Source of the DNA: a phage
DNA: 40,362 bases
Reading direction: 5' to 3' (one strand)
Sequence record: OZ418233.1
In this document: piece by piece, positions 3,212 through 37,421 of the stretch
Layout of the letters: each line of letters opens with the position of its first letter
Numbering within the stretch: the stretch's first letter is position 1
Notes under the pieces: generated by a model
Seen by the model: only the letters and a program-made list of their open reading frames with translations
Told to the model about the DNA's origin: nothing
The model's database searches: none
Translations under genes and position numbers: made by a program

Positions 3212-3226
3212 TTACCTGAAAGGTAA
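3212..3226. promoter_or_regulatory. palindromic operator-like motif TTACC-TGAAA-GGTAA
   Basis: Perfect TTACC-N5-GGTAA inverted repeat, about 90 bp upstream of the first virion gene; one of 12 such sites in the window. Confidence 0.55.
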
Positions 3227-3316
3227 TAATTAACGCGTTAAATGTCAACCTTCTACGATAAATAAAACATATGTGGTTAAATTGGTAATAATTTAATTGC
3301 GTACGGAGTCATTGAT

Positions 3317-3523
3317 ATGTGCATGGGTAGCTCACCATCAGTGCCTGCAACACCAGAAGTTCAGGCAGCACCACAGGAGCAGGATGCCGCCGTTGTTGAT
3401 GCCCGCGACGAAGAAACACGTCGCCGTCGCGCTGCTGCTGGTCGTAGTTCTACGCTGCTTACCGGTTCTCAGGGCGACACATCAACCGCTAATACCAGCG
3501 GTAAAACGCTGCTTGGTCAGTAA
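3317..3523 (+). CDS. small virion protein, T7 gp6.7-like (68 aa)
   Basis: Begins Met-Cys like T7 gp6.7 as I recall it; sits immediately before the portal gene; RBS GGAGT with a translation initiation region nearly identical to the portal's. Confidence 0.45.
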   Translation: MCMGSSPSVPATPEVQAAPQEQDAAVVDARDEETRRRRAAAGRSSTLLTGSQGDTSTANTSGKTLLGQ

Positions 3524-3537
3524 CCGGAGTCATTGAA

Positions 3538-5217
3538 ATGGCGGAAACAACTAAAGAGCGATTGAACAAACAGTTCGCACAACTTGAAAGCGAGCGTCAG
3601 TCGTTCGAGCCGCACTGGCGCGAGTTGAGTGATTACATCAACCCGCGTGGTTCCCGCTTTCTGACTTCTGAGGTCAACCGTAACGATCGACGCAATACAC
3701 GCATTATTGATTCGACCGGGACTATGGCGGCGCGCACTCTCGCCAGCGGCATGATGTCAGGCATCACAAGCCCCGCGCGTCCGTGGTTTCGCCTGGCTAC
3801 GCCAGATCCTGAAATGATGGATTATGGCCCTGTTAAGTTGTGGCTTGAGGCGGTGCAGAACCGCATGAACGATATGTTCAATAAGTCGAATCTCTACCAG
3901 TCTCTTCCGCAGTTATACGGAAGCCTCGGCACATACAGCACTGGTGCAATGGCGGTGCTGGAGGATGACGAGGACATCATTCGCACAATGCCATTCCCGA
4001 TAGGCAGTTACTACCTGGCTAACTCACCTCGTGGCAGTGTGGACACCTGTTTTCGCAAGTTCTCTATGACTGTTCGTCAGCTTGTTCAGGAGTTCGGACT
4101 AAATAACGTCAGCGAATCCGTAAAAAGCATGTGGGAAAGCGGCGCCTACGAGAAGTGGATTGACGTGATGCATTCGGTTTACCCGAACATTGACCGCGAT
4201 ACATCGAAGCTGGATAGCAAGAACAAGCCATTCAAATCGGTTTATTACGAGGTTGGTGGCGATAACGACAAGTTGTTGCGTGAGTCCGGATTCGATGAGT
4301 TCCCAATTATGGCTCCGCGCTGGGAAGTTAACGGCGAAGATGTTTATGGATCATCATGCCCGGGTATGCTGGCGCTTGGACCTGTTAAGGCACTGCAGCT
4401 TCTCCAGAAGCGCAAGTCGCAGTTGATTGATAAAGCCACCAATCCGCCGATGGTTGCTCCGACTTCCCTCAAGAATCAGCGTGCCTCCCTTCTTCCTGGC
4501 GACATCACGTATATCGATCAGATTACTGGTCAGGATGGTTTCAGGCCTGCTTATCTGGTTAACCCCAGTACAGCAGATTTGGTGGCAGACATTCAGGACA
4601 CTCGTCAAATCATTAACAGCGCCTACTTTGTCGATCTGTTCATGATGTTGCAGAACATCAATACCCGCTCGATGCCTGTTGAAGCGGTGATCGAAATGAA
4701 AGAAGAAAAACTTCTGATGTTGGGGCCGGTTCTGGAGCGTCTGAACGACGAATGTCTTAATCCTCTCATTGACCGCGCTTTCTCGATGATGGTGCGTAAA
4801 AACATGCTGCCGCCACCGCCTGACGCGATGGAAGGTATGCCCCTGAAGGTCGAATACATTTCTGTCATGGCTCAGGCGCAGAAGTCTATCGGCCTGTCCA
4901 GTCTGGCGTCCACGGTTAACTTCATTGGTCAACTTGCGCAAGCGAAACCAGAAGCTCTCGACAAACTCAACGTTGATCAGGCGATCGATGCATTCGCTGA
5001 TATGTCCGGAGTGTCTCCAACCGTCATTGTTCCGCAGGAACAGGTTGAGCAGGCTCGCCAGCAACGGGCACAGCAACAACAGCAGCAACAAATGATGGCG
5101 ATGGGGATGGCGGCGGCACAGGGTGCCAAGACGCTAAGCGAAGCTAAAACTTCGGATCCGAGTGTTTTGTCAGCTATGGCGAATGCAGTTAGTGGTCAGG
5201 GTGGGCAATCACAATGA
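3538..5217 (+). CDS. portal (head-to-tail connector) protein, T7 gp8-like
   Basis: 559-aa ORF with Q-rich C-terminus (QQQQQQQMMAMGMAAAQG...) as in T7-type connectors; gene order portal-scaffold-capsid. Confidence 0.85.
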   Translation: MAETTKERLNKQFAQLESERQSFEPHWRELSDYINPRGSRFLTSEVNRNDRRNTRIIDSTGTMAARTLASGMMSGITSPARPWFRLATPDPEMMDYGPVKLWLEAVQNRMNDMFNKSNLYQSLPQLYGSLGTYSTGAMAVLEDDEDIIRTMPFPIGSYYLANSPRGSVDTCFRKFSMTVRQLVQEFGLNNVSESVKSMWESGAYEKWIDVMHSVYPNIDRDTSKLDSKNKPFKSVYYEVGGDNDKLLRESGFDEFPIMAPRWEVNGEDVYGSSCPGMLALGPVKALQLLQKRKSQLIDKATNPPMVAPTSLKNQRASLLPGDITYIDQITGQDGFRPAYLVNPSTADLVADIQDTRQIINSAYFVDLFMMLQNINTRSMPVEAVIEMKEEKLLMLGPVLERLNDECLNPLIDRAFSMMVRKNMLPPPPDAMEGMPLKVEYISVMAQAQKSIGLSSLASTVNFIGQLAQAKPEALDKLNVDQAIDAFADMSGVSPTVIVPQEQVEQARQQRAQQQQQQQMMAMGMAAAQGAKTLSEAKTSDPSVLSAMANAVSGQGGQSQ

Positions 5218-5510
5218 CAGATTACGAAGACGATCAACTGAAAGAAGAAAACGCCCGCAAGCAACGTGACATGGCACAGCGTGAAATTGATGACATTCGC
5301 TTTGTCATGAGCAGTGAACAGGGGCGTCGCGTTGTCTGGTCGGTGCTGGAGAAAGGCCGGGTGTTTTCCGCTATCTCTCCGATGGATGCTATGGCAATGG
5401 CATTTAATGAGGGGCAACGCAATCTGGCGCTGGAACTGTTTCAGCGCGTTATGGCGCATTGCCCTGAACAGTATTTGAAGATGGCCAAAGAGGCCAGTGA
5501 ACAGGAGTGA
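5214..5510 (+). CDS. hypothetical head-module protein (98 aa)
   Basis: ATG overlaps portal stop (ATGA); charged, helical-looking sequence between portal and scaffold genes. Confidence 0.45.
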   Translation: MTDYEDDQLKEENARKQRDMAQREIDDIRFVMSSEQGRRVVWSVLEKGRVFSAISPMDAMAMAFNEGQRNLALELFQRVMAHCPEQYLKMAKEASEQE

Positions 5511-18133: not shown

Positions 18134-20608
18134 ATGAGACAGGAATGTATACAAGCGGTCCAGCAGGCGGCGCAGCGCACGTTAACGGCGCGAGAAATAC
18201 AGAACATTGAAGACCGCATTTATCGCAATATGCGCTCCATTGCTCGTGATGACCCTATGTCGTGGCGACAACTTTCCGAGTCAGAGCGGCTGTATCGTGC
18301 AGCACAATTGGCATCTGAAGAATTACAGCGAGAAGCGGCATTAAAGAAACGTCGTGTGGCTCTTACTATAGCCGCACGTCAGAGATTGGATAAATTTATC
18401 AATAGCTATCAAGGGGCTGATGGGAAACTTGGCGCTCTTAACCGTACTATTGCTTTTAATGCAGACGGTAAATCGAATTTCCTCTCTGTTGAGTCCAGAA
18501 CAAAAGCCACTCGTGATTATGCATTGAGTCAATTGCAGGAGGCATTTGAAGCAGTTGATCCTCGCTTTTTTGGCCTGTTTGAAGATGAAGCTGGCGTGCG
18601 TGACCTGGTATATGAAATGCGAGGGCAAAATACTGGCAATGCTAAAGCAAGAAAAGGTGCTAAGGCGTGGAGAGAAGTGACAGATCTACTGCGCCGCCGG
18701 TTTAATGATGCTGGTGGGGACATTGGCTATCTCGAAAACTGGGGGATCCCTCAACATCATTCTATGGAAAAGGTTGGGACGGTATCAAAAGATAAATGGG
18801 TTAGCGATGTTATAGGTAAGCTGGATCGCAAATATTATACCCGAGCCGATGGACAACTGATGAACGATGCCGAGTTGTCTGCATTTCTTGGAGAGGCTTA
18901 TAACACGATCGCTACTGGTGGGCTGAATAAGCTTACTGATACCGGAATGCGAATTTCCGGCGCACGTGCTAACCGTGGTAATGCATCACGACAGATACAT
19001 TTCAAAGATGCAGATTCCTATCTGCAATATCAGCAACTTTATGGCGATCGCTCTCTATGGGAAATCATGGTCGGTCACCTTGAAGGTATCAGTAAAGATA
19101 TTGCACTGGTGGAAACATATGGCCCAAACCCCGATCATGTTTTCCGCTCTCTTCTTGATCAGGTGAAGGCAGAAACGGCAACAGCTAACCCGAGTAAAAC
19201 CGGTAAAGTCGAGCGGCTGGCGAACAACACAGAGAATCTGTACAACTTTATTTCCGGAAAGACACAGCCTGTAGCGAATCCGCACATCGCGCGATGGTCT
19301 GACAATATCCGCAACTGGCTGGTTGCCAGCAGACTCGGATCCGCGTTGCTGTCATCGTTCTCTGATCTTGGAACCATGTATCTGTCTGCGAAGGTTACCA
19401 ACCTTCCAATGAACCAGTTATTCCGCAACCAGCTTGAAGCTATGGACCCAACGAACCGTACAGAACTTGCGCGGGCGCGCCGCGCTGGTCTGGCGATGGA
19501 ATCTCTACTTGGCAGCGTTAACCGCTGGGCGATGGATAATATGGGGCCGTCTGTGTCTCGTTGGGCTGCAACGGCGGTGATGCGTGCCAGTGGGCTTACA
19601 GCATGGTCAGATGCGCACAAGCGCGCCTATGGCGTAACCATGATGGGAAGCCTGGGAGAAGTAGTGTCACGGACACCAGACCTTCGTAGCCTCGATGATT
19701 CTGATTTTCGTATCCTGAAAAGCAAAGGGATTACTGACACAGACTGGAGCGTATGGAAGCTGGCGCAACAGGAGGACTGGGGGAACGGCAATAATACGAT
19801 GCTGACACCGGAAAGCATTATGCGTATCCCTGATTCAGCAGTTAAACATCTTGGTGAGCCTGAACGCGTGAAATTTGAGGCAATGCGTAAACTGCTCGGT
19901 GCCGTAACTGAAGAAGTTGATATGGCTGTTATTACACCGGGAGCACGTGAGCAACTGATAACCGGTTCTGGTATTCAGCGTGGAACATGGAAAGGTGAAT
20001 TAACGAGAAGTGTTTTCCTGTTTAAATCGTTCCCTATCTCGGTGGTTATGCGTCACTGGTCACGCGCTATGGGTATGCCGTCTGCTGGTGGGCGTGCGGC
20101 ATATATTGCGACGTTTATTGCCAGTACGACCATTCTTGGCGCTTTGTCGCAGCAACTTAACGACCTTGCGTCTGGTCGTAATCCTCGCGAGATGACAGGA
20201 GAAGATGCTGCTAAATTTTGGCTTGGTGCTCTACTGAAAGGTGGTGGTCTTGGCCTTTACGGTGACTTTTTATTGTCAGATCACACTAGGTACGGAAGCG
20301 GCGCGCTGGCGTCGATGCTTGGCCCGGTAGCTGGTCTGGTTGATGACGTAGTGAAGATTGCTCAGGGCATACCGTTAAATGCTGTGGAAGGGAAGAATGA
20401 GCAGACTGGTGGTGATCTGGTTAAGCTGGGGAAAGGTCTGATGCCAGGTGCGAATCTCTGGTACTTAAAGGCGGCTCTCGATCACATGATCTTTAACCAG
20501 ATGCAGGAGTATTTTTCACCAGGTTATTTGCGTAAAATGGAGCAACGTTCGAAGAAAGAGTTTAACCAGACATACTGGTGGCGACCACAGGATGTCACTC
20601 CGCAATAA
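18134..20608 (+). CDS. large internal virion/ejection protein (824 aa)
   Basis: Last and largest gene of the virion core block; hydrophobic C-terminal segments; RBS GAGAGG upstream. Confidence 0.45.
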   Translation: MRQECIQAVQQAAQRTLTAREIQNIEDRIYRNMRSIARDDPMSWRQLSESERLYRAAQLASEELQREAALKKRRVALTIAARQRLDKFINSYQGADGKLGALNRTIAFNADGKSNFLSVESRTKATRDYALSQLQEAFEAVDPRFFGLFEDEAGVRDLVYEMRGQNTGNAKARKGAKAWREVTDLLRRRFNDAGGDIGYLENWGIPQHHSMEKVGTVSKDKWVSDVIGKLDRKYYTRADGQLMNDAELSAFLGEAYNTIATGGLNKLTDTGMRISGARANRGNASRQIHFKDADSYLQYQQLYGDRSLWEIMVGHLEGISKDIALVETYGPNPDHVFRSLLDQVKAETATANPSKTGKVERLANNTENLYNFISGKTQPVANPHIARWSDNIRNWLVASRLGSALLSSFSDLGTMYLSAKVTNLPMNQLFRNQLEAMDPTNRTELARARRAGLAMESLLGSVNRWAMDNMGPSVSRWAATAVMRASGLTAWSDAHKRAYGVTMMGSLGEVVSRTPDLRSLDDSDFRILKSKGITDTDWSVWKLAQQEDWGNGNNTMLTPESIMRIPDSAVKHLGEPERVKFEAMRKLLGAVTEEVDMAVITPGAREQLITGSGIQRGTWKGELTRSVFLFKSFPISVVMRHWSRAMGMPSAGGRAAYIATFIASTTILGALSQQLNDLASGRNPREMTGEDAAKFWLGALLKGGGLGLYGDFLLSDHTRYGSGALASMLGPVAGLVDDVVKIAQGIPLNAVEGKNEQTGGDLVKLGKGLMPGANLWYLKAALDHMIFNQMQEYFSPGYLRKMEQRSKKEFNQTYWWRPQDVTPQ

Positions 20609-21851: not shown

Positions 21852-22019
21852 CTATTTGGAGCGAAATGCCGCCTTGAAGTCGCTAAAAGATGTTCCTGTC
21901 TGGTAAACCATATCCTTGTCGCGCTCTTTGCTTGCGCGACCAAGCATAACTTTTCCAATGACATCCCAGCATTGCTTGGCTTGTTCATTGTGCTGAGTAC
22001 GATTTTTCAACGCTGTCAT
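21852..22019 (-). CDS. hypothetical small protein (55 aa)
   Basis: Not in the supplied ORF track (below 60 aa); found by reading the minus strand: ATG with strong RBS AAGGAGG, translation MTALKNRTQHNEQAKQCWDVIGKVMLGRASKERDKDMVYQTGTSFSDFKAAFRSK, stop 21 bp upstream of the 147-aa gene. Confidence 0.35.
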   Translation of the reverse strand: MTALKNRTQHNEQAKQCWDVIGKVMLGRASKERDKDMVYQTGTSFSDFKAAFRSK

Positions 22020-22031: not shown

Positions 22032-22046
22032 TTACCTTTAAGGTAA
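22032..22046. promoter_or_regulatory. operator-like motif TTACC-TTTAA-GGTAA
   Basis: Perfect copy of the shared palindrome, 13 bp upstream of the 55-aa gene start, directly after a -10-like TAATAT on the minus strand. Confidence 0.55.
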
Positions 22047-22112: not shown

Positions 22113-22799
22113 TCAGAAGAACCCTGCTTTGTCGTTGATGTACTCCGCGTGGGTCTGGATATCACGCAGGCATTTGCTCACACCAACGATGTAGCAGAAC
22201 ATGGTGGTCAGCTCCGCCGCCGCTCCCGATACGTCGTGCCCGTCGTCCTGTAACTGGTTCAGCAGATTCATCAGCAGTGAGTTCTCCGTCAGGCCGAGAA
22301 CACCAGACGGCGAATGAATCAGGCTACGGTAGCCGGGCTTCAGTGGGGCGCTGTAGGTTTTGTTCTCTATCTTCATTGCCTGCATCACTGCTGACGCCGT
22401 GGCGTTGGCTACCTGGTCGGCAACCATCTTTATGCGTTCTTCTTGCGGGAGCGAGTTTTTAATGTAACTTCCGGTGCGGCGGATCTGAGGAAGAACCTCA
22501 CCTGTAACCCATTTACGAAAGCGGTATGGGATAGTGCCTGGTGTCACCGCATCGCGGCAGCGGAGGATCAGTGTGTAGAGGCCTGACTCGTTGATAATAT
22601 TGGTTTCGCCTTGACGGCCTAAGTTAAATTTAGCCCTTTCATCATCATCAAGAGATTTTATTGACATAGTGGGGTTTGTCAGTTGAAGAGCTTTAATAAC
22701 GTCTTTGGCAACAAACCAAGGATTTCCATCAATAACAATGGCTCGAATGGTTGCTTCTGATTCAAAATGAAAAACAGATGGGGTTACGTTAGCAGTCAT
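22113..22799 (-). CDS. Bro-N domain protein (antirepressor-like), 228 aa
   Basis: From internal ATG with RBS AGGTGA: MTANVTPSVFHFESEATIRAIVIDGNPWFVAKDVIKALQL... is a Bro-N-type N-terminal domain; C-terminal about 65 aa is paralogous to the small protein at 23945-24217. Confidence 0.7.
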   Translation of the reverse strand: MTANVTPSVFHFESEATIRAIVIDGNPWFVAKDVIKALQLTNPTMSIKSLDDDERAKFNLGRQGETNIINESGLYTLILRCRDAVTPGTIPYRFRKWVTGEVLPQIRRTGSYIKNSLPQEERIKMVADQVANATASAVMQAMKIENKTYSAPLKPGYRSLIHSPSGVLGLTENSLLMNLLNQLQDDGHDVSGAAAELTTMFCYIVGVSKCLRDIQTHAEYINDKAGFF

Positions 22800-22952
22800 A
22801 GTGATCACCTTTGTAGTTAGGTTAATCACCACTACCGACGCCAATCGGTTGGTGGTGAACTGTGCAGGGTTGGCGTAACCGGCTACAAAGGACCCGGCGC
22901 ACCTTTCGGTGCCCCCACACAGCCCACCATAGAATAGGTGCGCTTTACACAT

Positions 22953-22971: not shown

Positions 22972-23065
22972 CATATGTGCCTCTGTAGTAATCCGGGACG
23001 CCAATCCCGGCACTGGATTTTGCCAGTGCCCGATTACTATGGCACAAGAGGAGTGCGATGTAAAT

Positions 23066-23080
23066 TTACCGTAAAGGTAA
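23066..23080. promoter_or_regulatory. operator-like motif TTACC-GTAAA-GGTAA
   Basis: Perfect palindrome; on the minus strand it follows a -35/-10-like pair (TTGATT, 18 bp, TATCAT). Confidence 0.55.
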
Positions 23081-23158
23081 TGATAAGCGCGAAGAAACAT
23101 TAAAATCAACCGTATTTGGTTGATTGCGTTTAACGCTTGATCACCTGAAAGCAAGATA

Positions 23159-23173
23159 TTACCTTTAAGGTAA
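23159..23173. promoter_or_regulatory. operator-like motif TTACC-TTTAA-GGTAA
   Basis: Perfect palindrome 20 bp upstream of the ATG of the 242-aa gene. Confidence 0.55.
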
Positions 23174-23193: not shown

Positions 23194-23922
23194 ATGGAAG
23201 TTTTCTGGATAGTTGTTGGTGTGGTTGCGGTGATTATTTACGTTATCAACCAGAACAAGACTAAGATCTCTGATCGTACGGTCGTTAATCATAACAAAAC
23301 GATAAAGACCGAAGATGGGGAGATAACGATTAATCGTACACAGGTGATAGAACACACCTCTACTCAGTTTCAAAAAACTGGAGGTAATGCGCCTAATATT
23401 TCCGCACCTCCTGCTTATGATAGTGCGGTAATCCAGACATATTATAAACAGCAGGAGTTAGCAAAAGAGAGGCAACTGATTCAGCCAAAGCCGTTTACAG
23501 CTGAGATTCCACCTGGAGTGTCAACGCGTCCGGCATATCATGGAAGATTCCCTGGTGATGACATATCGTCTCAGTCATCTAAAAAAGCACCTCAGGCAAT
23601 ATCAGAGCCAGCAAGAATACCTTCTGTATCGCCGCCAAAAGAAGAATCAGCTAACAGAGTTTCAAGTGGTAGCAAGCAGTGCTTGCGATGCAGAATAAAC
23701 CTTCCATATGAAAAATTCAGGAAATCGTCAAAAAATCCAGATGGATTGACTAAATGGTGTGCAAGGTGTCTCGATGGCCCAAAGAATACACGCCATATGA
23801 AGTGGTGCCCAATTTGTAATGTCCGCAGAAAACGAACCAGCTTTTACCCTAATAATCAAAATGCGGACGGCTTAATGGCATGGTGCAAAACGTGCTGGGA
23901 TGAGCACAAAGCGAAACGATAG
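23194..23922 (+). CDS. membrane-anchored protein with two CxxC zinc-ribbon-like pairs (242 aa)
   Basis: RBS GAGGAAAA; N-terminal hydrophobic helix followed by basic residues; Pro/Ser-rich linker; C-terminal C-x2-C repeats (CLRC, CARC, CPIC, CKTC). Confidence 0.55.
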   Translation: MEVFWIVVGVVAVIIYVINQNKTKISDRTVVNHNKTIKTEDGEITINRTQVIEHTSTQFQKTGGNAPNISAPPAYDSAVIQTYYKQQELAKERQLIQPKPFTAEIPPGVSTRPAYHGRFPGDDISSQSSKKAPQAISEPARIPSVSPPKEESANRVSSGSKQCLRCRINLPYEKFRKSSKNPDGLTKWCARCLDGPKNTRHMKWCPICNVRRKRTSFYPNNQNADGLMAWCKTCWDEHKAKR

Positions 23923-23944: not shown

Positions 23945-24217
23945 TTACCGGGTTTGTTTTCGTAATTGTTCGGCACAATAGTCGAGATGTGTTTGCAGAT
24001 CCCGCATAGACATCTGTGAGCTGGTGACGTAGTTAATCAGTGCAGTCAGTTCGGCAAGTGGGCCATCGACATTAAATCCATCCTTATCGAGATCCCGGAG
24101 TAATTTCATCAAGTGCGATCCCTCCACCAGTGACTTGACGCCTCCCGGCGTGTGAATCCTTTCGGTAAATCCGTCTTCCAGTGGATAGTGATACTGCTGC
24201 ATCTTAATCTTCTCCAT
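23945..24217 (-). CDS. small antirepressor-like protein (Bro C-terminal-domain paralog), 85-90 aa
   Basis: About 45% identical by eye over 60 aa to the C-terminus of the Bro-N protein (…LAELT…RD[IL]QTH…); second ATG at 24202 has RBS GGAGAAG; LexA-box-like palindrome immediately upstream. Confidence 0.55.
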   Translation of the reverse strand: MEKIKMQQYHYPLEDGFTERIHTPGGVKSLVEGSHLMKLLRDLDKDGFNVDGPLAELTALINYVTSSQMSMRDLQTHLDYCAEQLRKQTR

Positions 24218-24221: not shown

Positions 24222-24243
24222 TAACTGTATATTTATACAGTAT
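24222..24243. promoter_or_regulatory. LexA (SOS) box candidate
   Basis: TAACTGTATATTTATACAGTAT contains CTGT-N8-ACAG with AT-rich spacer, one mismatch from the E. coli consensus TACTGTATATATATACAGTA as I recall it; located just upstream of the small antirepressor-like gene. Confidence 0.65.
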
Positions 24244-24279: not shown

Positions 24280-24294
24280 TTACCTAAAAGGTAA
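24280..24294. promoter_or_regulatory. operator-like motif TTACC-TAAAA-GGTAA
   Basis: Perfect palindrome in the divergent intergenic region between the small antirepressor-like gene and the tailspike gene. Confidence 0.55.
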
Positions 24295-24398
24295 TATCTA
24301 TTTATATTCACAGTATTTCTATCCATATGTGGTTTTTCAGGTAATAGAATAACCAGATATGCGGCGCAACGGGTGCTGCGACTATCTGGAGATTTAAC

Positions 24399-26588
24399 AT
24401 GACGGTCTCAACCGAAGTTGACCACAACGAATACACCGGTAACGGCGTTACGACATCATTTCCGTATACCTTCCGTATTTTCAAAAAAACCGACCTGGTT
24501 GTTCAGGTGTCTGACCTGAACGGGAACGTAACAGAATTGGTTCTGGATACCGGTTATAAGGTAACTGGAGCGGGCACTTATAGTGGCGGTGAAGTGGTTC
24601 TCCCGTCGCCGCTTGCTGCTGGCTGGCGAATTACGATAGAGCGTGTGCTTGATGTGGTGCAGGAGACTGATCTTCGCAATCAGGGAAAATTTTTCCCCGA
24701 AGTTCATGAAGATGCATTTGACTACCTGACGATGCTGATCCAGCGATGTTTTGGGTGGTTCAGACGTGCATTGATGAAACCATCTTTGCTTGCAAAATAT
24801 TACGATGCAAAGCAAAACAAAATTTCTAACCTTGCAGATCCATCATTTGAGCAGGACGCTGTAAATAATCGCTCAATGCGTAATTATGTCGATGCTGCAA
24901 TCGCCGGGGTTGTTGGTGGTTTTGGTTGGTTTATACCGTCAGGAAGCGGGGCAAGACAACGAACATTTCAAAGCAAAATGAGGGATATAATTTCTCCTTG
25001 TGATTACGAAGATAATATTTTTATGATTAAGGAGTTGATATCCAAAGGCAAAAATGCCGCTGTTTTTAACTCATATTATACTTTTGTTATTACTGTTGGC
25101 GAATGGGGTGATTACCCTACACTCAAAGATGCAATCATTGCAGCCCAGTCAATGAGACCTATGTGGGATGGTGGTAATGCTTTCTGCGAAATAAGAATTA
25201 AGACCGGGCATATTATCAACTATCAAATTGAATTCAGTTCAGGTGTTGATTTGTCTTGGATTAAAATAACATCAGAAGACTCAGTGGTTTTCTCTGATAC
25301 TCGTTTGTTTACTAAAATCGTTAGAACGTATTACGAATACAAGTATTTATTTTACATTTGCGATGCAGCAAAAAGTCCTGTATTTGCTATTCAGATCGAA
25401 GAAAATAGAGATGATAGCGATGTTTGTGCATTTATTGTAACTCAAAAAGCTGAACTTAATTTCTATCCGTATTCAGGTGCTCGAAAGTTCTACGTTGGAA
25501 TTCATGGTAGTTTTGGTGCAAAAATTAGTGCATATCATACCGGATGTGCTCCTGATGAGGAAAGTGTTGCTGCATATATGCCAGAAGGGTATTACGTATG
25601 TGATTTTTCTTATAGCAGATACTCTTCCCTGCAACTGGTAAATAATGTCAAGGCATCAATGCCTGTAAGCAAGTTTGAACGGTGCACAGAGAGTACGGTT
25701 GCGTCAGTTAATTGTATTTATAATGTTAAAGCAGATTTTCAGGGGTCAAGTGCAAGCTATTGTTATATAGGATGGAATGTAAGAGATGGTTCAAATGTTA
25801 ATATACGCGACCATAAAACTATACATTGCTCATATCGTGGATTAACCTGCATTCATACAGCATATGTTGATGCAAGACGACATGACGTTGAAGAAAGTGA
25901 TGCAGAAACAAGTGGTAAAGTCCTTGAACCAAATATTGAAAAAGGTTTTTATGGATGTGCACTTGGTGTGCGTATTGATGGTGCGGGTTGCGTTGATGTT
26001 GCTGGTAATGATATGCGCAATTGTGGAACAGCCGTTAATGCAGACACTGGTGCTGTTATTTCAGGAAAGGCTGTAGATATCTCAGGGGCTGAGCTGGGAT
26101 TTGATTGCCATGCAGGAGCATCTGTTAATTTTCCAAGGCTATGGGGTACAGATATAAAAAAATTAATGCACCTCCAAGATGGTGTAAGGTTTAACTCTAA
26201 TATTTGTCATGTATTTGGTGCAAATCCCACAAAAGATATTAGATGGATTGATGTAGAGAGATCTGAAGCTTCTTTTATGAATGCAACGCTGGATGCAGAT
26301 TCAGGATTTATTGCCGACTGTGGTAGTAGGATAACCATTGAAGGAAGTAAAGTTAAAAACCAAACAATAAGAAGTTTTTTTGGATCATATGTGGCTATAA
26401 ATAATACTGTTGCTGACAGAACTTATTCAGATATAGCCGATGTTCCGCAGTTGACTATTAGTGGAGGATCTTTTATTTCTGCTACAGGATATTCTAATTC
26501 TGACTCCAGCCCTCTGAGGTTGAGCACAACACGAAATACACTTGGCGTTGGAGGAGCCATATTTTCAACCAATGGGGAAGTTTCATGA
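24399..26588 (+). CDS. tailspike / receptor-binding depolymerase (729 aa)
   Basis: N-terminal about 130 aa resembles the conserved particle-binding module of podovirus tailspikes (from memory); the remaining body is visibly AT-rich; RBS GGAG. Confidence 0.75.
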   Translation: MTVSTEVDHNEYTGNGVTTSFPYTFRIFKKTDLVVQVSDLNGNVTELVLDTGYKVTGAGTYSGGEVVLPSPLAAGWRITIERVLDVVQETDLRNQGKFFPEVHEDAFDYLTMLIQRCFGWFRRALMKPSLLAKYYDAKQNKISNLADPSFEQDAVNNRSMRNYVDAAIAGVVGGFGWFIPSGSGARQRTFQSKMRDIISPCDYEDNIFMIKELISKGKNAAVFNSYYTFVITVGEWGDYPTLKDAIIAAQSMRPMWDGGNAFCEIRIKTGHIINYQIEFSSGVDLSWIKITSEDSVVFSDTRLFTKIVRTYYEYKYLFYICDAAKSPVFAIQIEENRDDSDVCAFIVTQKAELNFYPYSGARKFYVGIHGSFGAKISAYHTGCAPDEESVAAYMPEGYYVCDFSYSRYSSLQLVNNVKASMPVSKFERCTESTVASVNCIYNVKADFQGSSASYCYIGWNVRDGSNVNIRDHKTIHCSYRGLTCIHTAYVDARRHDVEESDAETSGKVLEPNIEKGFYGCALGVRIDGAGCVDVAGNDMRNCGTAVNADTGAVISGKAVDISGAELGFDCHAGASVNFPRLWGTDIKKLMHLQDGVRFNSNICHVFGANPTKDIRWIDVERSEASFMNATLDADSGFIADCGSRITIEGSKVKNQTIRSFFGSYVAINNTVADRTYSDIADVPQLTISGGSFISATGYSNSDSSPLRLSTTRNTLGVGGAIFSTNGEVS

Positions 26589-26881
26589 TTAAGAGCATTG
26601 ATGTCACTCCATTTCTTCACTCGCTTTGCGCTTTTGCGGCTCAGGTACTGGTTGGTATTTTTACCGGAAACTGGGCTTACGGTGCGATAGCCGGTTGTAC
26701 GTTCTTCATTGCGCGTGAACACACCCAGGCAGAATATCGCTGGATAGAAAAGTTTGGGAAAGGGAAACGTATCAACATGCCGTGGTGGGGAGGTTTTGAT
26801 CCACGCGTGTGGGATGTGGGAAGTCTGTTGGATTTTGCTGTTCCTGTTGTTTTTTGTTTTTGTGTTTATTTCTCTATTTGA
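26585..26881 (+). CDS. membrane protein, possible holin-class lysis protein (98 aa)
   Basis: ATG overlaps tailspike stop (ATGA); two or three hydrophobic helices; first gene of the lysis cassette block. Confidence 0.4.
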   Translation: MIKSIDVTPFLHSLCAFAAQVLVGIFTGNWAYGAIAGCTFFIAREHTQAEYRWIEKFGKGKRINMPWWGGFDPRVWDVGSLLDFAVPVVFCFCVYFSI

Positions 26882-27083
26882 CTGCTACCGCGCCATTAAA
26901 TGGTGCGGTATTCAACCTGCTCTTCACTGTTTGTTTCTTCAGAGTCATGTAAAAGGTGAGCTTTATTCTCGGCATGAAAAACAGGGAATTGACGATGTTA
27001 AAGTAACAAAAAACCATAAATGGTTTATTATGCGTAATGCTTTACTGTTCAGGAGGTTGTTATGCATATAAACGGTGGAAAAC

Positions 27084-28896: not shown

Positions 28897-29046
28897 TTTC
28901 CGGTGACGGTATATAAAACGGTACGGTGAAAATCAGGTTACAGAAAGTTGTTACCAGTCAATTGGTTATGCGTGCCGTAAATAATTGAGTGGGAATGATT
29001 AACAGCTAACTCATAGCAAGTCATTCCTATTCAGATACTAATTTAA

Positions 29047-29133: not shown

Positions 29134-29148
29134 TTACCTTAAAGGTAT
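29134..29148. promoter_or_regulatory. operator-like motif TTACC-TTAAA-GGTAT (one mismatch)
   Basis: Copy of the shared palindrome 43 bp upstream of the integrase start. Confidence 0.45.
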
Positions 29149-34196: not shown

Positions 34197-34215
34197 AACT
34201 TGTTACCTCGGTCTG

Positions 34216-34230
34216 TTACCGTTGAGGTAA
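34216..34230. promoter_or_regulatory. operator-like motif TTACC-GTTGA-GGTAA
   Basis: Perfect palindrome at the head of the leftward early operon. Confidence 0.55.
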
Positions 34231-34277
34231 TAATTATGCGTATCTGGTTTGATGTCAATAGATATGAGTTAAAAAAA

Positions 34278-34292
34278 TTACCCGTTAGGTAA
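34278..34292. promoter_or_regulatory. operator-like motif TTACC-CGTTA-GGTAA
   Basis: Perfect palindrome 62 bp from the previous site. Confidence 0.55.
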
Positions 34293-34349: not shown

Positions 34350-34934
34350 TTATTGTTTGTTTTTTTCGTTCTGGTTGATGACAAATTCAATGTAACTTTC
34401 GATCTTTGCCTTCTCTGTTTCAGGTAGCAATGCGTAGCGCGAGCGGTCATAGTTGATAGTCGCGGGGTCGTGCGGGTGAATCAGTAATTCATATCCGTGA
34501 CGCCCAAATGCGGATGCAACATTCTCCAGGGTGGAAATGGAAACGCTGACCTCATTGTTTAACAGGCGGCTGATTGTTACCTGGGCGACGCCGGATGCGC
34601 GGTGAAGTTTTCCCTGCGTTGAAAGGTCGCGGCTTTCGCTCATCCAGCGTTCCAGGTTGTGAGCCGCCAGTTGACCAATGTCGCTTGGTCCGACAGGCTG
34701 AAAACCTTCCTGAGAAAGCGAGCGATCGATATCAAGCCAGTTACGGGGTTTATTGGCGGCAGCTTCAATTTTTCGCGCAACCTGGTCGCCGATAACCTTC
34801 TTGCCAAGAGCCCAGCGGTTTACCAGATTTGCCTGAGTTCCAAGTTTTTCAGCCATCCGCGTCTGAACACCATTGAATTCACGGTCGATCAAGTCGTTGA
34901 GATTTTGCCTGCGGACGTCCTGGATACTTTTCAT
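34350..34934 (-). CDS. prophage repressor candidate with two HTH (XRE-like) domains, no peptidase domain
   Basis: 194 aa; two HTH-like segments (…TRMAEKLGTQANLVNRWALGK… and …SGVAQVTISRLLNNEVSVSISTLENVASAFG…); divergent from a Cro-like gene with two palindromic operators between them; no Ala-Gly/Ser...Lys S24-type self-cleavage module seen. Confidence 0.55.
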   Translation of the reverse strand: MKSIQDVRRQNLNDLIDREFNGVQTRMAEKLGTQANLVNRWALGKKVIGDQVARKIEAAANKPRNWLDIDRSLSQEGFQPVGPSDIGQLAAHNLERWMSESRDLSTQGKLHRASGVAQVTISRLLNNEVSVSISTLENVASAFGRHGYELLIHPHDPATINYDRSRYALLPETEKAKIESYIEFVINQNEKNKQ

Positions 34935-34989: not shown

Positions 34990-35004
34990 TTACCCAACAG
35001 GTAA
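34990..35004. promoter_or_regulatory. operator-like motif TTACC-CAACA-GGTAA (immunity region)
   Basis: Perfect palindrome in the repressor/Cro-like divergent intergenic region. Confidence 0.6.
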
Positions 35005-35037
35005 ATGCACCTCATGGGTAACTATCCTTGATTTTTG

Positions 35038-35052
35038 TTACCTTATAGGTGA
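35038..35052. promoter_or_regulatory. operator-like motif TTACC-TTATA-GGTGA (one mismatch) overlapping a rightward promoter
   Basis: Sits between a -35-like TTGTTA (35035-35040) and a -10-like TATTAT (35058-35063, 17-bp spacing) upstream of the Cro-like gene. Confidence 0.55.
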
Positions 35053-35088
35053 ATATTTATTATCTGAAATAAATATCAGGCAATAGCT

Positions 35089-35319
35089 ATGAGCGATAAC
35101 GGACATTTCGATTTCAAAAAGCACTGGCTTGCACTTACTCCGGATGAGCGTGAAGCCTTCGCACAGGAAGCCGGAACGACGAGTCACTATATCCAGACTC
35201 ACTTAACAGGTAAGCGCAAAATGCCAGGTAAGGTATTGATGAATGGGCTTTTTAAAGCCTGTAAATCAAGACAATGGCTGCGCTCAAAAGCAGAACTGGC
35301 ATACTTCTTCTACTCATGA
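35089..35319 (+). CDS. Cro-like small HTH regulator (76 aa)
   Basis: Small basic protein with an HTH-like segment (EREAFAQEAGTTSHYIQTHLTG), first gene of the rightward operon, divergent from the repressor. Confidence 0.5.
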   Translation: MSDNGHFDFKKHWLALTPDEREAFAQEAGTTSHYIQTHLTGKRKMPGKVLMNGLFKACKSRQWLRSKAELAYFFYS

Positions 35320-35340
35320 TATCCAGCCACAACCCTCTGT

Positions 35341-35364: not shown

Positions 35365-35469
35365 ATATCTATTCGCACCTCAAAGGTAATAAAAAACCAA
35401 ATCTGGTTGATCTTTTTTTTGTGTCAGCACAAAATGACCGTAATCCCAATGCTAATAACAGGGCTTACC

Positions 35470-35670
35470 ATGGAAATCATTACACGTATTGATGCCGCAA
35501 AGCGCGGACTTAAACGCTACTACACCGGAAAACCATGTAAGCACGGACATGACAGTGAACGCTGGGTTTACAACGGACACTGTGTTGAGTGCACCATGGA
35601 ATCAAACCGTCGCATCAGGGCAGAGATTAAGCAGATCATGATTAATTCCTCCCCACAACATTCAAGCTGA
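35470..35670 (+). CDS. hypothetical small protein with Cys/His cluster (66 aa)
   Basis: CKHGHDSERWVYNGHCVEC suggests a metal-binding knuckle; start uncertain (weak RBS). Confidence 0.35.
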   Translation: MEIITRIDAAKRGLKRYYTGKPCKHGHDSERWVYNGHCVECTMESNRRIRAEIKQIMINSSPQHSS

Positions 35671-35685
35671 TAGCGGAGATTAATC

Positions 35686-36525
35686 ATGAGCAGACATGCA
35701 ACAGATTGGGCCTGGGAGACAGATCCAGGTAGCTCGTCATTAAAGCTCATACTGCTCTCGATGGCTGACAGAGCCGATGAATATAACCTCTGCTACCCCA
35801 GCATAGAACGCCTCGTTAAAGACACTTGCCTGAATAAAAAAACCGTGCAGGCCGGGCTTATATCGCTCATGAAAATGGGGCTTATTTCAGATACCGGAGA
35901 GAGAAAGGGAGCGACAAAAAGAGTGCGGGTTTTCTCTCTTAATATAACCAAAAACGGGAACATTAAAGGCAACCGGGAGGGGGGCAATGAACCCGAAAAC
36001 GGTAATGTTACCGAAAACGGGAATATACCCAAAAACGGGATGTTGAATGATCCCAAAAACGGGATGTTGAATGATCCCAAAAACGGGATGTTGAATGATC
36101 CCAAAAACGGGATCCAGAACCAGTCATATAACCAGTCATTTAACCAAGAGAGGGAGAGCAGGACAAAAAACGGGGATTCTGTGCCTCATGACCCTGGCGC
36201 AAACAACGCCGTGATGAATAACTTTGTTCCTCCTGGTGGGCCAGGGCAATTAGGCAAATTTGTCATGCATGAACAATGGCAACCATCAGATGACTTTCTT
36301 CGGAAAAGCTCATTGCAGGGGATCTACCTGGACAGTCTGCCAACGGCACAGGAACTTGCAGAGTTCAGAATTTACTGGATGGCTGAGGGTAAGGCATACC
36401 ATCAGGCACAGTGGGAGCAGAAGCTGGCAAGGCGGCTGCAGATTAGCAGACAGAAGCAATCAACATTACCTGATAACAACGTTCCGCACTGGAACAGCCC
36501 TGAAGCATGGGAGGATTTCTTGTGA
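35686..36525 (+). CDS. replication initiator (lambda O-like, N-terminal HTH) containing origin iterons
   Basis: RBS GGAG; N-terminal HTH-type region (…SSSLKLILLSMADRADEYNLCYPSIERLVKDT…); central coding region made of direct DNA repeats (translated NGMLNDPK x3); followed by a P-like gene. Confidence 0.7.
   Translation: MSRHATDWAWETDPGSSSLKLILLSMADRADEYNLCYPSIERLVKDTCLNKKTVQAGLISLMKMGLISDTGERKGATKRVRVFSLNITKNGNIKGNREGGNEPENGNVTENGNIPKNGMLNDPKNGMLNDPKNGMLNDPKNGIQNQSYNQSFNQERESRTKNGDSVPHDPGANNAVMNNFVPPGGPGQLGKFVMHEQWQPSDDFLRKSSLQGIYLDSLPTAQELAEFRIYWMAEGKAYHQAQWEQKLARRLQISRQKQSTLPDNNVPHWNSPEAWEDFL
36028..36113. repeat. iteron array (3.5 copies of a 24-bp direct repeat CCCAAAAACGGGATGTTGAATGAT), putative origin
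   Basis: Direct repeats at 36028, 36052, 36076 and partial at 36100; additional degenerate AAAACGG(G/T)AA units at about 35949, 35993 and 36011; in lambda the ori iterons lie inside the O gene. Confidence 0.7.
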
Positions 36526-37307
36526 ACAACGTTTTTACCGCGATACAAAACCGTGACGGAGAAGCCCTTTCTCGCATGTCAGGTTATGAGCATCAGTACG
36601 TCAACAATGACAATGTGGTTAACATGTCAGCAGAGAGGCTTGTTGATGCCCTTTTCAAACAGCTGAAACAACTGTTTCCGGCGGCAGTGGTAACCAACCT
36701 GAAGACGCCAGAGCAGGAAGTAGCTGCAAAACAGCAGTGGATTGCTGCGTTTGCCGAAGGGGGGATCCGAACCCGTGAACAGGTTTCTGCTGGTATGCGC
36801 CACGCCCGCGCCAGTGAATCTCCGTTCTGGCCGTCGCCTGGGCAATTCATCAAGTGGTGTAAAGACAGCAAGATGGTTCTTGGCGTCACCATTGACGATG
36901 TGATGGCGGAGTTTCACCGGTACAGCAAGGAAAAAAGTTTATATCCTGGTGGTCCCGAAAGATTCCCGTGGCGACATCCGGTTATGTACTGGGTCGTATG
37001 TGATACCCGCCGTGCAATGTATCAGCGCCAGCTTAGCGAGATTGAGGTTGAGAAACACGCGCGCAGGCTGCTCGATGATTGGGCGAAAAAGGTGGCTTCC
37101 GGACAGCAGATACCGGATCCGGTGATCAGCATACAGGCAAAGCCAGAACCCATGAGTACGCCTCCGGACACAGGGAGAGACGTTTACCATCCACCAGGGC
37201 GAAGTTTCGGGTGCATGCCTAACGCCGCCACCCTTGGGGGAATAACACCGGCGCAGTGGCTGATGGAGGAATACAGGCGGGGAAAGGCGGCAGGATTTAT
37301 CAAGTAA
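36522..37307 (+). CDS. replication protein P-like (helicase loader)
   Basis: Aligns by eye with lambda P as I recall it (NGITTMEQVNAGMRVARRQNRPFLPSPGQFVAWC versus GGIRTREQVSAGMRHARASESPFWPSPGQFIKWC here); GTG start overlapping the O stop with RBS GGGAGGA. Confidence 0.75.
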   Translation: MNNVFTAIQNRDGEALSRMSGYEHQYVNNDNVVNMSAERLVDALFKQLKQLFPAAVVTNLKTPEQEVAAKQQWIAAFAEGGIRTREQVSAGMRHARASESPFWPSPGQFIKWCKDSKMVLGVTIDDVMAEFHRYSKEKSLYPGGPERFPWRHPVMYWVVCDTRRAMYQRQLSEIEVEKHARRLLDDWAKKVASGQQIPDPVISIQAKPEPMSTPPDTGRDVYHPPGRSFGCMPNAATLGGITPAQWLMEEYRRGKAAGFIK

Positions 37308-37344
37308 TACCAGCGCGATAGCGCATTTTTTTACGCCTCGATAG

Positions 37345-37359
37345 TTACCTATTGGGTAA
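37345..37359. promoter_or_regulatory. operator-like motif TTACC-TATTG-GGTAA
   Basis: Perfect palindrome downstream of the P-like gene. Confidence 0.55.
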
Positions 37360-37406
37360 CAAAATATTCTAAATTCTATTGATTTCGTGTCTTATGTGGT
37401 TTTTAA

Positions 37407-37421
37407 TTACCTAAGAGGTAA
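37407..37421. promoter_or_regulatory. operator-like motif TTACC-TAAGA-GGTAA overlapping an RBS
   Basis: Perfect palindrome ending 3 nt before ATG 37425; its right half doubles as the SD (GAGGT). Confidence 0.55.

What the first reader, a model, noticed from the sequence alone, without database searches (positions are those of the whole stretch)
3212..37421. A 15-bp palindrome TTACC-N5-GGTAA recurs at 12 intergenic sites across the phage genome
Sites read directly from the sequence: 3212, 22032, 23066, 23159, 24280, 29134 (GGTAT), 34216, 34278, 34990, 35038 (GGTGA), 37345, 37407, plus a partial at 35375. A fully specified 10-base palindrome is expected about 0.04 times by chance in 40 kb, so a dozen copies is far beyond chance. 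All are outside coding sequence. Half-site centres are 10 bp apart, the geometry of a dimeric HTH operator. Two copies flank the repressor/Cro-like promoters, two head the leftward early operon, two precede the post-replication genes, and single or paired copies sit at the promoters of the accessory genes, int and the first virion gene. Several overlap a -10 element or the RBS. This looks like one regulator silencing many transcription units, closer to a genome-wide operator or stoperator regulon than to a classic two-operator lambda immunity region.
Basis: seen in the sequence. Interest (0 to 1): 0.78.

Follow-up and report, generated by a model that had tools for sequence, protein, structure and literature searches.

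The report
Dispersed repressor operators of a phiV10-like phage
The repeated TTACC-N5-GGTAA palindrome is real and is almost certainly the binding site of this phage's lysogeny repressor at nearly every promoter region, but the same sites are already annotated as repressor sites in the related phage epsilon15, so it is a correct but ordinary finding.

Summary
TTACC-N5-GGTAA occurs 11 times exactly (0.03 expected) and 3 more times with one mismatch. Two degenerate copies bring the total to 16. All 16 lie in the 6.6% of the genome that is non-coding.

The window is a complete phiV10/epsilon15-like temperate podovirus (Uetakevirus). Its 194-aa repressor is 100% identical to phiV10 gp40 and is a full-length homologue of the Salmonella phage SPC32H repressor Rep (PDB 5D50). 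A 90-aa gene (23945-24217) is the SPC32H-type antirepressor Ant, and a perfect LexA box sits in front of it.

The epsilon15 RefSeq record already annotates seven dispersed copies of the same palindrome as "repressor / lysogeny" binding sites. Six other Uetakevirus genomes carry the motif in the same positions relative to the genes. Half-sites are invariant and spacers vary. Operator pairs are exactly 62 bp apart in 14 of 14 cases here, and in 149 of 151 cases in 80 further prophage loci. E. coli K-12 DNA has 1 hit in 150 kb.

The reading "one repressor, many transcription units" is supported. The stoperator analogy is not. Binding itself was not tested here. The finding is already known and of low to moderate interest.

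The parts
47..61 (.). Operator, exact (TTACCACAACGGTAA), upstream of terS.
   Evidence: Syntenic sites occur in phiV10 (87), epsilon15 (12, annotated as a repressor site), Tyrion (67) and TL-2011b (11590).
65..79 (.). Operator with one mismatch (GGTTA). It abuts the terS start codon (ATG 82) and covers its ribosome-binding site (RBS).
   Evidence: Tyrion annotates the RBS inside the equivalent site.
3212..3226 (.). Operator upstream of the first head-operon gene (3317-3523).
   Evidence: Half-sites are invariant in 7 genomes. The epsilon15 equivalent at 2931-2947 is annotated as a repressor site.
22032..22046 (.). Operator directly abutting the AGGAGG RBS of the minus-strand 55-aa gene (21852-22019), downstream of the Bro-N gene.
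   Evidence: A counterpart is present in TL-2011b.
23066..23080 (.). Operator at predicted leftward promoters pointing toward the Bro-N gene.
   Evidence: Promoter-like hits on the minus strand at 23109..23080 and 23064..23036.
23159..23173 (.). Operator 20 bp upstream of the 242-aa accessory gene (23194-23922).
24280..24294 (.). Operator in the divergent ant / tailspike intergenic region.
   Evidence: Conserved in 6 genomes. The epsilon15 equivalent at 19895-19911 is annotated as a repressor site.
29134..29148 (.). Variant operator (GGTAT) between the attP core (28984-29000) and the int start (29191).
   Evidence: The same GGTAT variant occurs in all 7 genomes, but the whole region is 90% conserved, so selection specific to the site cannot be shown.
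34216..34230 (.). Proximal operator of the leftward early promoter (PL). It overlaps the -10 element and the predicted transcription start.
   Evidence: Promoter TTGACA-17-AATTAT on the minus strand at 34258..34230. Alignment.
34278..34292 (.). Distal PL operator, 62 bp from the proximal one, just beyond an invariant A-tract.
34350..34934 (-). Rep, the immunity repressor (194 aa).
   Evidence: Matches PDB 5D50_A (SPC32H Repressor) at E = 4e-42 over the full length. 100% identical to phiV10 gp40. HTH_3 domain and no S24 peptidase domain.
34990..35004 (.). Operator on the rep side of the rep-cro divergent region.
35007..35021 (.). Degenerate middle operator (GCACC...GGTAA). An exact site sits at this position in epsilon15 and SPC32H.
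   Evidence: PWM score 11.2, about the mean of the shuffle maxima. Alignment.
35038..35052 (.). Operator with one mismatch (GGTGA) inside the predicted rightward promoter for the cro-like gene.
   Evidence: Promoter TTGTTA-17-TATTAT at 35035-35063, and an invariant TTGATT at 35028.
35089..35319 (+). Cro-like 76-aa protein, a possible second binder of the same sites.
   Evidence: 78% identical to epsilon15 gp39. Matches phrog_35, 'transcriptional repressor'.
35375..35389 (.). Degenerate operator (GCACC...GGTAA) after the cro terminator.
   Evidence: One-mismatch counterparts in phiV10 (33112) and Tyrion (35365).
37345..37359 (.). Distal operator of the post-replication promoter (called P3 in this report).
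37407..37421 (.). Proximal P3 operator. It overlaps the -10 element and contains the Shine-Dalgarno sequence of the DUF1064 gene (ATG 37425).
   Evidence: Predicted promoter TTGATT (37379-84)-17-TTTAAT (37402-07). Alignment.
23945..24217 (-). Ant, the SPC32H-type antirepressor (90 aa).
   Evidence: Matches PDB 5D50_E (Anti-repressor protein) at E = 4.6e-46.
24225..24240 (.). LexA box CTGTATATTTATACAG, immediately upstream of ant.
   Evidence: Conserved in 6 genomes.

Best explanation
The palindromes are the operators of the phage's own lysogeny repressor, Rep (34350-34934, minus strand). Rep belongs to the SPC32H/epsilon15 type.

Proposed binding mode (inferred). Two N-terminal helix-turn-helix domains read the two TTACC half-sites, which lie one helical turn apart. 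Rep is reported to work as a tetramer, so it carries two such DNA-reading pairs. That would explain why early promoters carry two operators at a fixed 62-bp distance. One operator sits over the -10 element and the transcription start. The other sits just upstream of the -35 element and an A/T-rich tract.

Proposed function (inferred). In a lysogen, Rep would occupy operators in 10 of the 17 intergenic gaps of 40 bp or more. These gaps cover the leftward early operon, the rep/cro switch, the post-replication operon, the terS, head and tailspike units, int, ant and the accessory genes. Nearly every transcription unit would then be shut off directly. After DNA damage, LexA cleavage would allow expression of the small antirepressor Ant (23945-24217). 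Ant takes Rep off the DNA, so all units would be released together.

Shown here: the motif exists, is enriched, is confined to non-coding DNA and is under selection; Rep and Ant are homologous to the crystallised SPC32H proteins; and a LexA box precedes ant. Inferred: that Rep physically binds these sites in this phage, the promoter assignments, tetramer bridging of the 62-bp pairs, and direct control of the late genes.
For: - Motif statistics and placement.
- The epsilon15 RefSeq record annotates 7 protein_bind 'repressor / lysogeny' features, and they are this same palindrome.
- Rep matches PDB 5D50_A at E = 4e-42. Ant matches 5D50_E at E = 4.6e-46.
- A LexA box sits upstream of ant and is conserved in relatives.
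- Rep is only 43% identical between the phiV10 and epsilon15 lineages, yet the predicted recognition-helix residues N36-W41 (NLVNRW) are invariant. This matches the invariant half-site.
- The motif occupies the same positions in 6 other genomes, with 8-11 exact copies each.
- Half-sites are invariant and spacers vary in alignments of 6-7 genomes. The same holds in 45 and 55 unique variants from 80 prophage loci that carry the identical Rep.
- The 62-bp spacing is found in 14 of 14 pairs in 7 genomes and in 149 of 151 pairs in the prophage loci.
- PL and P3 share the same operator/promoter geometry.
- Per the ZX5 paper, its ORF21 repressor has the same sequence as phiV10 ORF40, which is identical to the window's Rep. 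Overexpressing ORF21 abolished free phage and cut holin and endolysin transcripts by more than 99.9% (PMC9782041).
- Rep is described as a tetramer that binds palindromic sites and is disassembled by Ant (PMC9638917; PMC9986798).
Against: - No binding data for this phage were available. The three primary papers (PMC2698709, PMC3807360, PMC4983836) are not held, so I could not see which sites were tested experimentally.
- The epsilon15 annotation may itself be purely computational.
- The Cro-like protein is better conserved than Rep (78% against 43%). Conservation of the operator therefore does not single out Rep.
- Clear sigma-70 promoters were found only at PL, PR and P3. At terS the operators follow a terminator with no recognisable promoter, so promoter occlusion is not established at every site.
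- The promoter scan as a whole found fewer hits than shuffled sequence gave.
- The two domain pairs of the Rep tetramer are reported to be about 100 angstroms apart. Sixty-two bp of straight DNA is about 210 angstroms, so bridging would need DNA bending or flexible linkers.
Confidence: 0.85

Rival explanations
1. The sites are bound mainly or only by another phage regulator, not by Rep. Candidates are the Cro-like 76-aa protein (35089-35319) and the 113-aa regulator encoded just before terS (39981-40322).
For: The Cro-like protein is 78% identical between lineages that share the half-site and matches a repressor family (phrog_35). The 113-aa protein matches phrog_536, 'transcriptional regulator'. 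Nothing here tests binding.
Against: Epsilon15 annotators assigned the sites to the repressor. Rep's predicted recognition helix is invariant across 43%-identical homologues. Rep is reported to bind palindromic DNA as a tetramer. In lambda-type switches the repressor and Cro share operators, so Cro binding would add to Rep binding rather than replace it.
Confidence: 0.07
2. Some sites act as transcription roadblocks inside operons, in the manner of stoperators, rather than as promoter operators. The candidates are 47/65 (terS) and 22032, and possibly 37407.
For: Sites 47 and 65 follow a terminator hairpin with no recognisable sigma-70 promoter and abut the terS start codon. Site 22032 lies 66 bp after the Bro-N stop codon and touches the RBS of the next gene. 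Mycobacteriophage L5 repressor sites are known to stop elongation (PMC1934351).
Against: The sites are symmetric, so they carry no orientation, whereas stoperators are asymmetric and oriented. PL, PR and P3 show clear overlap with core promoters. Late promoters may depend on an activator and so be invisible to a consensus scan.
Confidence: 0.15
3. The palindromes work at the RNA level, as small hairpins that hide ribosome-binding sites or mark processing sites.
For: Three sites overlap or touch a Shine-Dalgarno sequence (65, 22032, 37407). The 17-mers can fold, with energies of -3.3 to -5.2 kcal/mol.
Against: The hairpins are weak. The half-site sequence itself is invariant, with no compensatory changes among dozens of copies, and every deviation breaks pairing (GGTAT, GGTGA, GGTTA, TCACC, GCACC). 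Many sites lie upstream of the predicted transcription start or in divergent promoter regions.
Confidence: 0.03
4. The motif is a generic host element (a host transcription-factor site or promoter feature), or a by-product of base composition.
For: The right half-site followed by AT-rich sequence resembles a -10 element (GGTAATAAT).
Against: There is 1 exact hit in 150 kb of E. coli K-12, and it is inside the yacL coding sequence. The phage genomes have 8-11 hits per 40 kb. Dinucleotide-preserving shuffles give 0.03. Isolated half-sites are not enriched in non-coding DNA.
Confidence: 0.02

Closest known systems
Epsilon15 / SPC32H Rep-Ant immunity system (genus Uetakevirus)
   Same: The same palindrome (ATTACC-N5-GGTAAT) is annotated as repressor sites at the same syntenic positions in epsilon15. 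Rep and Ant are homologous to the crystallised SPC32H proteins. ant is guarded by a LexA box. Rep has no autocleavage domain.
   Different: Rep is only 43% identical to the epsilon15/SPC32H protein. The window has three extra sites in an accessory-gene region (22032, 23066, 23159). The middle rep-cro operator is degenerate. The window lacks the operator in front of the lysis genes, and it has two PL operators where epsilon15 has three.
Phage P1 C1 repressor regulon
   Same: One repressor has many operators spread over the whole phage genome and is inactivated by an antirepressor protein. P1 has 22 operators (PMC8546580).
   Different: P1 operators are asymmetric 17-mers (ATTGCTCTAATAAATTT). 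P1 late genes are controlled indirectly through the late activator Lpa. Here the sites are symmetric palindromes and sit directly in front of virion and packaging genes.
Mycobacteriophage L5/L1/Bxb1 repressor sites (stoperators)
   Same: The genome carries dozens of repressor sites in short intergenic regions, and some of them act beyond the immunity region (PMC1934351).
   Different: Those sites are asymmetric 13-mers that can stop elongation. Here the sites are palindromes, and the best-resolved ones overlap core promoter elements.
Lambda-type immunity region (CI/Cro, OL and OR)
   Same: rep and the cro-like gene are divergent, with three operators between them and further operators at the leftward early promoter.
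   Different: Rep has no S24 autocleavage domain and is removed by an antirepressor. Operators also occur at eight intergenic regions outside the rep-flanking PL and rep-cro regions.

Membership tests
SPC32H/epsilon15-type Rep-Ant immunity system | Repressor homologous to SPC32H Rep over its full length (N-terminal DNA-binding domain, middle dimerisation domain, C-terminal tetramerisation / Ant-binding domain). | tested here: met
   phmmer against the PDB: 5D50_A, E = 4e-42, query residues 1-190. The domain description comes from PMC9986798.
SPC32H/epsilon15-type Rep-Ant immunity system | Small antirepressor homologous to SPC32H Ant. | tested here: met
   Window 23945-24217(-) against 5D50_E: E = 4.6e-46, residues 7-89.
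SPC32H/epsilon15-type Rep-Ant immunity system | ant is under LexA control, with a LexA box at the ant promoter. | tested here: met
   A perfect CTGT-N8-ACAG box lies at 24225-24240, 8 bp upstream of the ant start codon, and is conserved in 6 genomes. This is sequence-level evidence only. That LexA controls ant in SPC32H is recalled from the abstract of Kim and Ryu 2013, which is not held.
SPC32H/epsilon15-type Rep-Ant immunity system | The repressor is not a RecA-dependent self-cleaving protein (no S24 peptidase domain). | tested here: met
   Pfam reports only HTH-type domains and no Peptidase_S24.
SPC32H/epsilon15-type Rep-Ant immunity system | Operator palindrome ATTACC-N5-GGTAAT at the positions annotated as repressor sites in epsilon15. 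| tested here: met
   with syntenic mapping.
SPC32H/epsilon15-type Rep-Ant immunity system | Physical binding of Rep to the operators, and release of Rep by Ant. | not testable with these tools
   Needs EMSA, footprinting or ChIP.
Stoperators (cluster A mycobacteriophages) | Asymmetric site with a fixed orientation relative to transcription. | tested here: not met
   The sites are perfect or near-perfect palindromes.
Stoperators (cluster A mycobacteriophages) | Sites lie within operons, away from promoters, and block elongation. | tested here: inconclusive
   The PL, PR and P3 sites overlap core promoters. Sites 47/65 and 22032 have no recognisable promoter. Whether elongation is blocked cannot be tested here.
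P1 C1-type dispersed operator regulon | Many operators of one repressor spread across the genome. | tested here: met
   16 sites in 10 intergenic regions spanning the whole 40-kb genome.
P1 C1-type dispersed operator regulon | Asymmetric 17-bp operator and a C1-family repressor. | tested here: not met
   The operator is symmetric. Rep's only solved-structure relatives are the SPC32H Rep entries. Homology to P1 C1 was not tested directly.
Lambda CI-type immunity | A self-cleaving CI with an S24 domain, and operators confined to OL and OR. | tested here: not met
   There is no S24 domain, and operators occur at eight further regions.

The most novel reading that the evidence does not exclude
A single Rep tetramer clamps each early promoter through a rigidly spaced 62-bp operator pair. 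The proximal site covers the -10 element and transcription start, and the distal site lies beyond the UP-like A/T tract. The same repressor also directly gates the packaging, head, tailspike, integrase, antirepressor and accessory units. Ant-driven disassembly of Rep would then release the whole genome in one step, rather than through a lambda-style or P1-style cascade. I could not establish whether the published SPC32H and epsilon15 work already covers this.
Probability: 0.25. Interest if true: 0.45.

Novelty: already known. Interest (0 to 1): 0.22.

Why it matters
The result confirms that the first-stage reader can recover a real regulatory code from raw sequence. For the biology, it adds annotation that the phiV10 record lacks, namely 16 operator sites, the true SPC32H-type ant gene and its LexA box. 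It also points out a strictly conserved 62-bp operator-pair module that could be used to test how the Rep tetramer engages DNA. Beyond that, it gives no new kind of system. The motif-to-repressor assignment is already in the public epsilon15 record, and the repressor/antirepressor pair has been crystallised.

Tried and rejected
Literature:
- The three primary papers could not be opened by PMC id, DOI or PubMed id. They are the epsilon15 genome paper (PMC2698709), Kim and Ryu 2013 (PMC3807360) and Kim et al. 2016 (PMC4983836).
- Full-text searches found nothing useful. I tried the motif, a consensus string I recalled from memory (ATTACCWDWWNGGTAAT), and 'hyphenated inverted repeat'.

Searches that did not deliver what was wanted:
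- The viral-contig scan with the Rep alignment returned only loci with a 100% identical Rep. It therefore could not test whether the operator sequence changes together with the recognition helix in distant homologues.
- The consensus promoter scan found fewer sites than shuffled sequence did. It is used only for PL, PR and P3, where relatives conserve the hexamers.
- A search for a composite motif, TGTGGTT-N6-GGTAAT, used the wrong gap and found nothing relevant. ATGTGGTT alone is not significantly enriched: 4 copies against 1.5 expected.

Tool problem:
- Loci L004-L006 never appeared in the script folder. They were scanned with the DNA search instead.

Considered and rejected:
- RNA hairpin function (and no covariation).
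- Host element.
- Stoperator membership (the sites are palindromic).


Full report
**1. Observation**

TTACC-N5-GGTAA occurs 11 times exactly in the 40,362-bp window. Dinucleotide-preserving shuffles give a mean of 0.03. Allowing one mismatch gives 14 sites against 0.69 expected.

- an exact site at 47-61;
- a one-mismatch site at 65-79;
- a two-mismatch site at 35007-35021, found with a position-weight matrix built from the sites, which also recovers the partial at 35375.

Most copies extend to ATTACC-N5-GGTAAT.

I built a gene map from the ORF list, the phiV10 annotation and family hits. With that map, all 16 sites lie in the 6.6% of the window that is non-coding. Ten of the 17 intergenic gaps of 40 bp or more hold at least one site.

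Sites 47 and 65 sit in a mechanically listed ORF (1-675). That ORF runs through a terminator hairpin. In Tyrion and TL-2011b the annotated terS start lies 3 bp after the second site, which corresponds to window 82.

**2. What the window is**

The immunity region is 97-98% identical to Escherichia phages phiV10, phiv142-3 and PAS61. Gene order matches phiV10 from terS to the last early gene. The window is therefore a complete genome of a phiV10/epsilon15-like temperate podovirus, genus Uetakevirus.

**3. The motif is already annotated**

They lie:
- upstream of terS;
- upstream of the first head gene;
- between gp19 and the tail-fibre gene;
- three between the repressor gene and the leftward early operon;
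- one after the replication genes.

Extracting them gives ATTACC-N5-GGTAAT in every case. The phiV10 record has no such features. The dispersed palindrome and its assignment to the repressor are therefore already public for this genus. I could not tell whether that assignment is experimental or computational.

**4. The regulator**

- The 194-aa protein at 34350-34934 (minus strand) is 100% identical to phiV10 gp40.
- It matches the full-length repressor of Salmonella phage SPC32H (PDB 5D50 chain A) at E = 4e-42.
- It has HTH domains and no S24 self-cleavage domain.
- The 90-aa ORF at 23945-24217 (minus strand) matches the SPC32H antirepressor (5D50 chain E) at E = 4.6e-46.
- A perfect LexA box, CTGTATATTTATACAG, lies at 24225-24240, immediately upstream of that ORF. 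It is conserved in six genomes.

Secondary sources describe SPC32H Rep as a tetramer. Its DNA-binding pairs are formed across dimers and bind palindromic sites, and a tetrameric Ant disassembles it (PMC9638917). Rep has an N-terminal DNA-binding domain, a middle dimerisation domain and a C-terminal tetramerisation domain (PMC9986798).

The ZX5 paper reports that its ORF21 repressor has the same sequence as phiV10 ORF40. Overexpressing ORF21 eliminated free phage and reduced holin and endolysin transcripts by more than 99.9% (PMC9782041).

**5. Architecture**

Six further Uetakevirus genomes carry 8-11 exact copies each: phiV10, epsilon15, SPC32H, Tyrion, BUCT554 and TL-2011b. The copies occupy the same slots:

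| Slot | Window sites | Notes |
|---|---|---|
| Upstream of terS | 47, 65 | Two sites, 18 bp apart |
| First head gene | 3212 | |
| ant / tailspike divergent region | 24280 | |
| Lysis operon | none | Site present in relatives, absent from the window |
| int | 29134 | Always the GGTAT variant |
| Leftward early promoter (PL) | 34216, 34278 | Pair, 62 bp apart |
| rep-cro region | 34990, 35007, 35038 | Three sites, spaced 17 and 31 bp; epsilon15 has 17 and 30 |
| After the cro terminator | 35375 | Degenerate |
| After the replication genes (P3) | 37345, 37407 | Pair, 62 bp apart |
| Accessory region | 22032, 23066, 23159 | Shared with TL-2011b |

PL and P3 have the same layout: distal operator, 19 bp, a -35 element (TTGACA or TTGATT), 17 bp, then a -10 element whose last T is the first T of the proximal operator. 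The proximal operator therefore covers the transcription start. The distal operator lies just beyond an A/T-rich tract at the usual UP-element position.

The rightward promoter for the cro-like gene has operator 35038 inside it.

Start-to-start spacing of paired operators is exactly 62 bp in all 14 pairs in the seven genomes. It is also 62 bp in 149 of 151 pairs in 80 further viral contigs that encode the identical Rep.

**6. Evidence for selection on the half-sites**

- In alignments of PL, the rep-cro region, the ant-tailspike region, P3 and the head-operon upstream region, the TTACC and GGTAA columns are invariant. Spacers and flanks vary.
- Among 45 unique PL variants and 55 unique P3 variants from the prophage loci, the half-sites are 100% conserved. 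The N5 columns are among the most variable.
- Deviant copies never show compensatory changes. They simply break the symmetry (GGTAT, GGTGA, GGTTA, TCACC, GCACC). This fits protein recognition of a sequence, not an RNA stem. The possible hairpins are weak, at -3.3 to -5.2 kcal/mol.
- In 150 kb of E. coli K-12 there is one exact match, inside the yacL coding sequence.

**7. Which protein binds**

Rep is only 43% identical between the phiV10-type and epsilon15-type lineages. Even so, residues N36-W41 (NLVNRW) and other N-terminal positions are invariant, matching the invariant half-site.

The Cro-like 76-aa protein is 78% identical between the lineages and belongs to a repressor family. It is therefore an equally conserved candidate. 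By analogy with lambda it probably shares at least the rep-cro operators. Sequence analysis cannot separate the two proteins.

**8. Most likely mechanism**

In the lysogen, Rep sits on operators at 10 of the 17 intergenic gaps of 40 bp or more and keeps nearly every transcription unit off. At PL, PR and P3 this is promoter occlusion, probably reinforced by one tetramer holding both operators of a pair. SOS induction removes LexA from the ant promoter. Ant then strips Rep from all operators at once.

- Shown here: steps 1-6 above.
- Inferred: actual binding, tetramer bridging, and direct control of the late genes.
- A caution on bridging: the two domain pairs of the tetramer are reported to be about 100 angstroms apart, whereas 62 bp of straight DNA is about 210 angstroms. 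Bridging would need DNA bending or flexible linkers.

At terS the operators follow a terminator with no recognisable promoter. At 22032 the operator sits between two genes of one operon and touches the RBS. For these sites a roadblock action is a live alternative.

**9. Comparison with known systems**

This is a member of the SPC32H/epsilon15 Rep-Ant system. Every defining feature that can be tested from sequence is met.

It works like the dispersed regulons of P1 C1, with 22 asymmetric 17-bp operators (PMC8546580), and of mycobacteriophage L5, with many asymmetric 13-bp sites that also stop elongation (PMC1934351). It is not a member of either family, because its operators are symmetric.

It differs from lambda in three ways: Rep has no self-cleavage domain, it is removed by an antirepressor, and it has operators far outside the immunity region.

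**10. Verdict**

- Observation: confirmed.
- Interpretation: supported, apart from the stoperator analogy.
- Novelty: already known, on the basis of the epsilon15 annotation and the SPC32H structures.
- What is added here: a fuller site list for a phiV10-type genome, identification of the true ant gene and its LexA box, and the strict 62-bp pair module.
- Interest: about 0.2.

**11. Dead ends**

The primary papers are not held. Motif text searches were empty. The viral-contig scan returned only identical Rep alleles. Three loci could not be read by scripts.

Noticed in passing
window 23945-24217 (-) and 24225-24240: A 90-aa gene about 87% identical to the crystallised SPC32H antirepressor Ant, with a perfect LexA box 8 bp upstream of its start codon. 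In phiV10 the equivalent gene (p24) is annotated only as 'hypothetical protein'.
   Followed up: yes
window 22113-22952 (-): A Bro-N domain protein. Relatives such as ZX5 ORF4 label it 'anti-repressor'. It is unrelated to the SPC32H-type Ant, so the genome carries two different candidate antirepressors. The ORF's first 68 or so residues look like an over-extension, since the TL-2011b homologue is 231 aa.
   Followed up: partly
window 3268-3297; also 24327-24334 and 37394-37401: A 30-nt block, CATATGTGGTTAAATTGGTAATAATTTAAT, lies downstream of the head-operon operator and is nearly invariant in the seven genomes (the two differences are both in BUCT554). Its core, ATGTGGTT, recurs 47-59 bp downstream of operators 3212, 24280 and 37345. 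It may be a late-promoter or activator element. The 8-mer alone is not significantly enriched (4 copies against 1.5 expected).
   Followed up: partly
window 36028-36113: 3.6 perfect tandem copies of a 24-bp unit (CCCAAAAACGGGATGTTGAATGAT) inside the replication-initiator gene (35686-36525), flanked by further short repeats at 35991-36040 and 36118-36146. These are probably origin iterons.
   Followed up: partly
window 28984-29000: An exact copy of the attP core ATTGAGTGGGAATGATT reported for phiV10, epsilon15 and ZX5 (integration at the 3' end of guaA). It lies about 190 bp upstream of int, and the variant operator 29134 sits between the core and int.
   Followed up: yes
window 1-81, and L001 (phiV10) 41-121: The phiV10 RefSeq terS start (record position 41, equivalent to window 1) appears over-extended. 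That reading frame runs through a terminator hairpin and both operators. Tyrion, TL-2011b, epsilon15 and SPC32H annotate the start just after the second operator.
   Followed up: partly
loci L010-L089 (IMG/VR viral contigs): At least 80 viral contigs encode a Rep 100% identical to the window's, and 317 candidate stretches encode a relative. This immunity type is therefore very common among enterobacterial prophages.
   Followed up: partly
window 26585-27075: The window has no operator in front of the lysis cassette, whereas phiV10 (24692), epsilon15 (24704), SPC32H (24782), Tyrion (26408) and BUCT554 (21929) all do. Here ORFs abut the cassette and leave no intergenic gap.
   Followed up: no
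window 34200-34212: An extra isolated GGTAA half-site lies between the proximal PL operator and the first PL gene. Overall, isolated half-sites are not enriched in non-coding DNA.
   Followed up: partly
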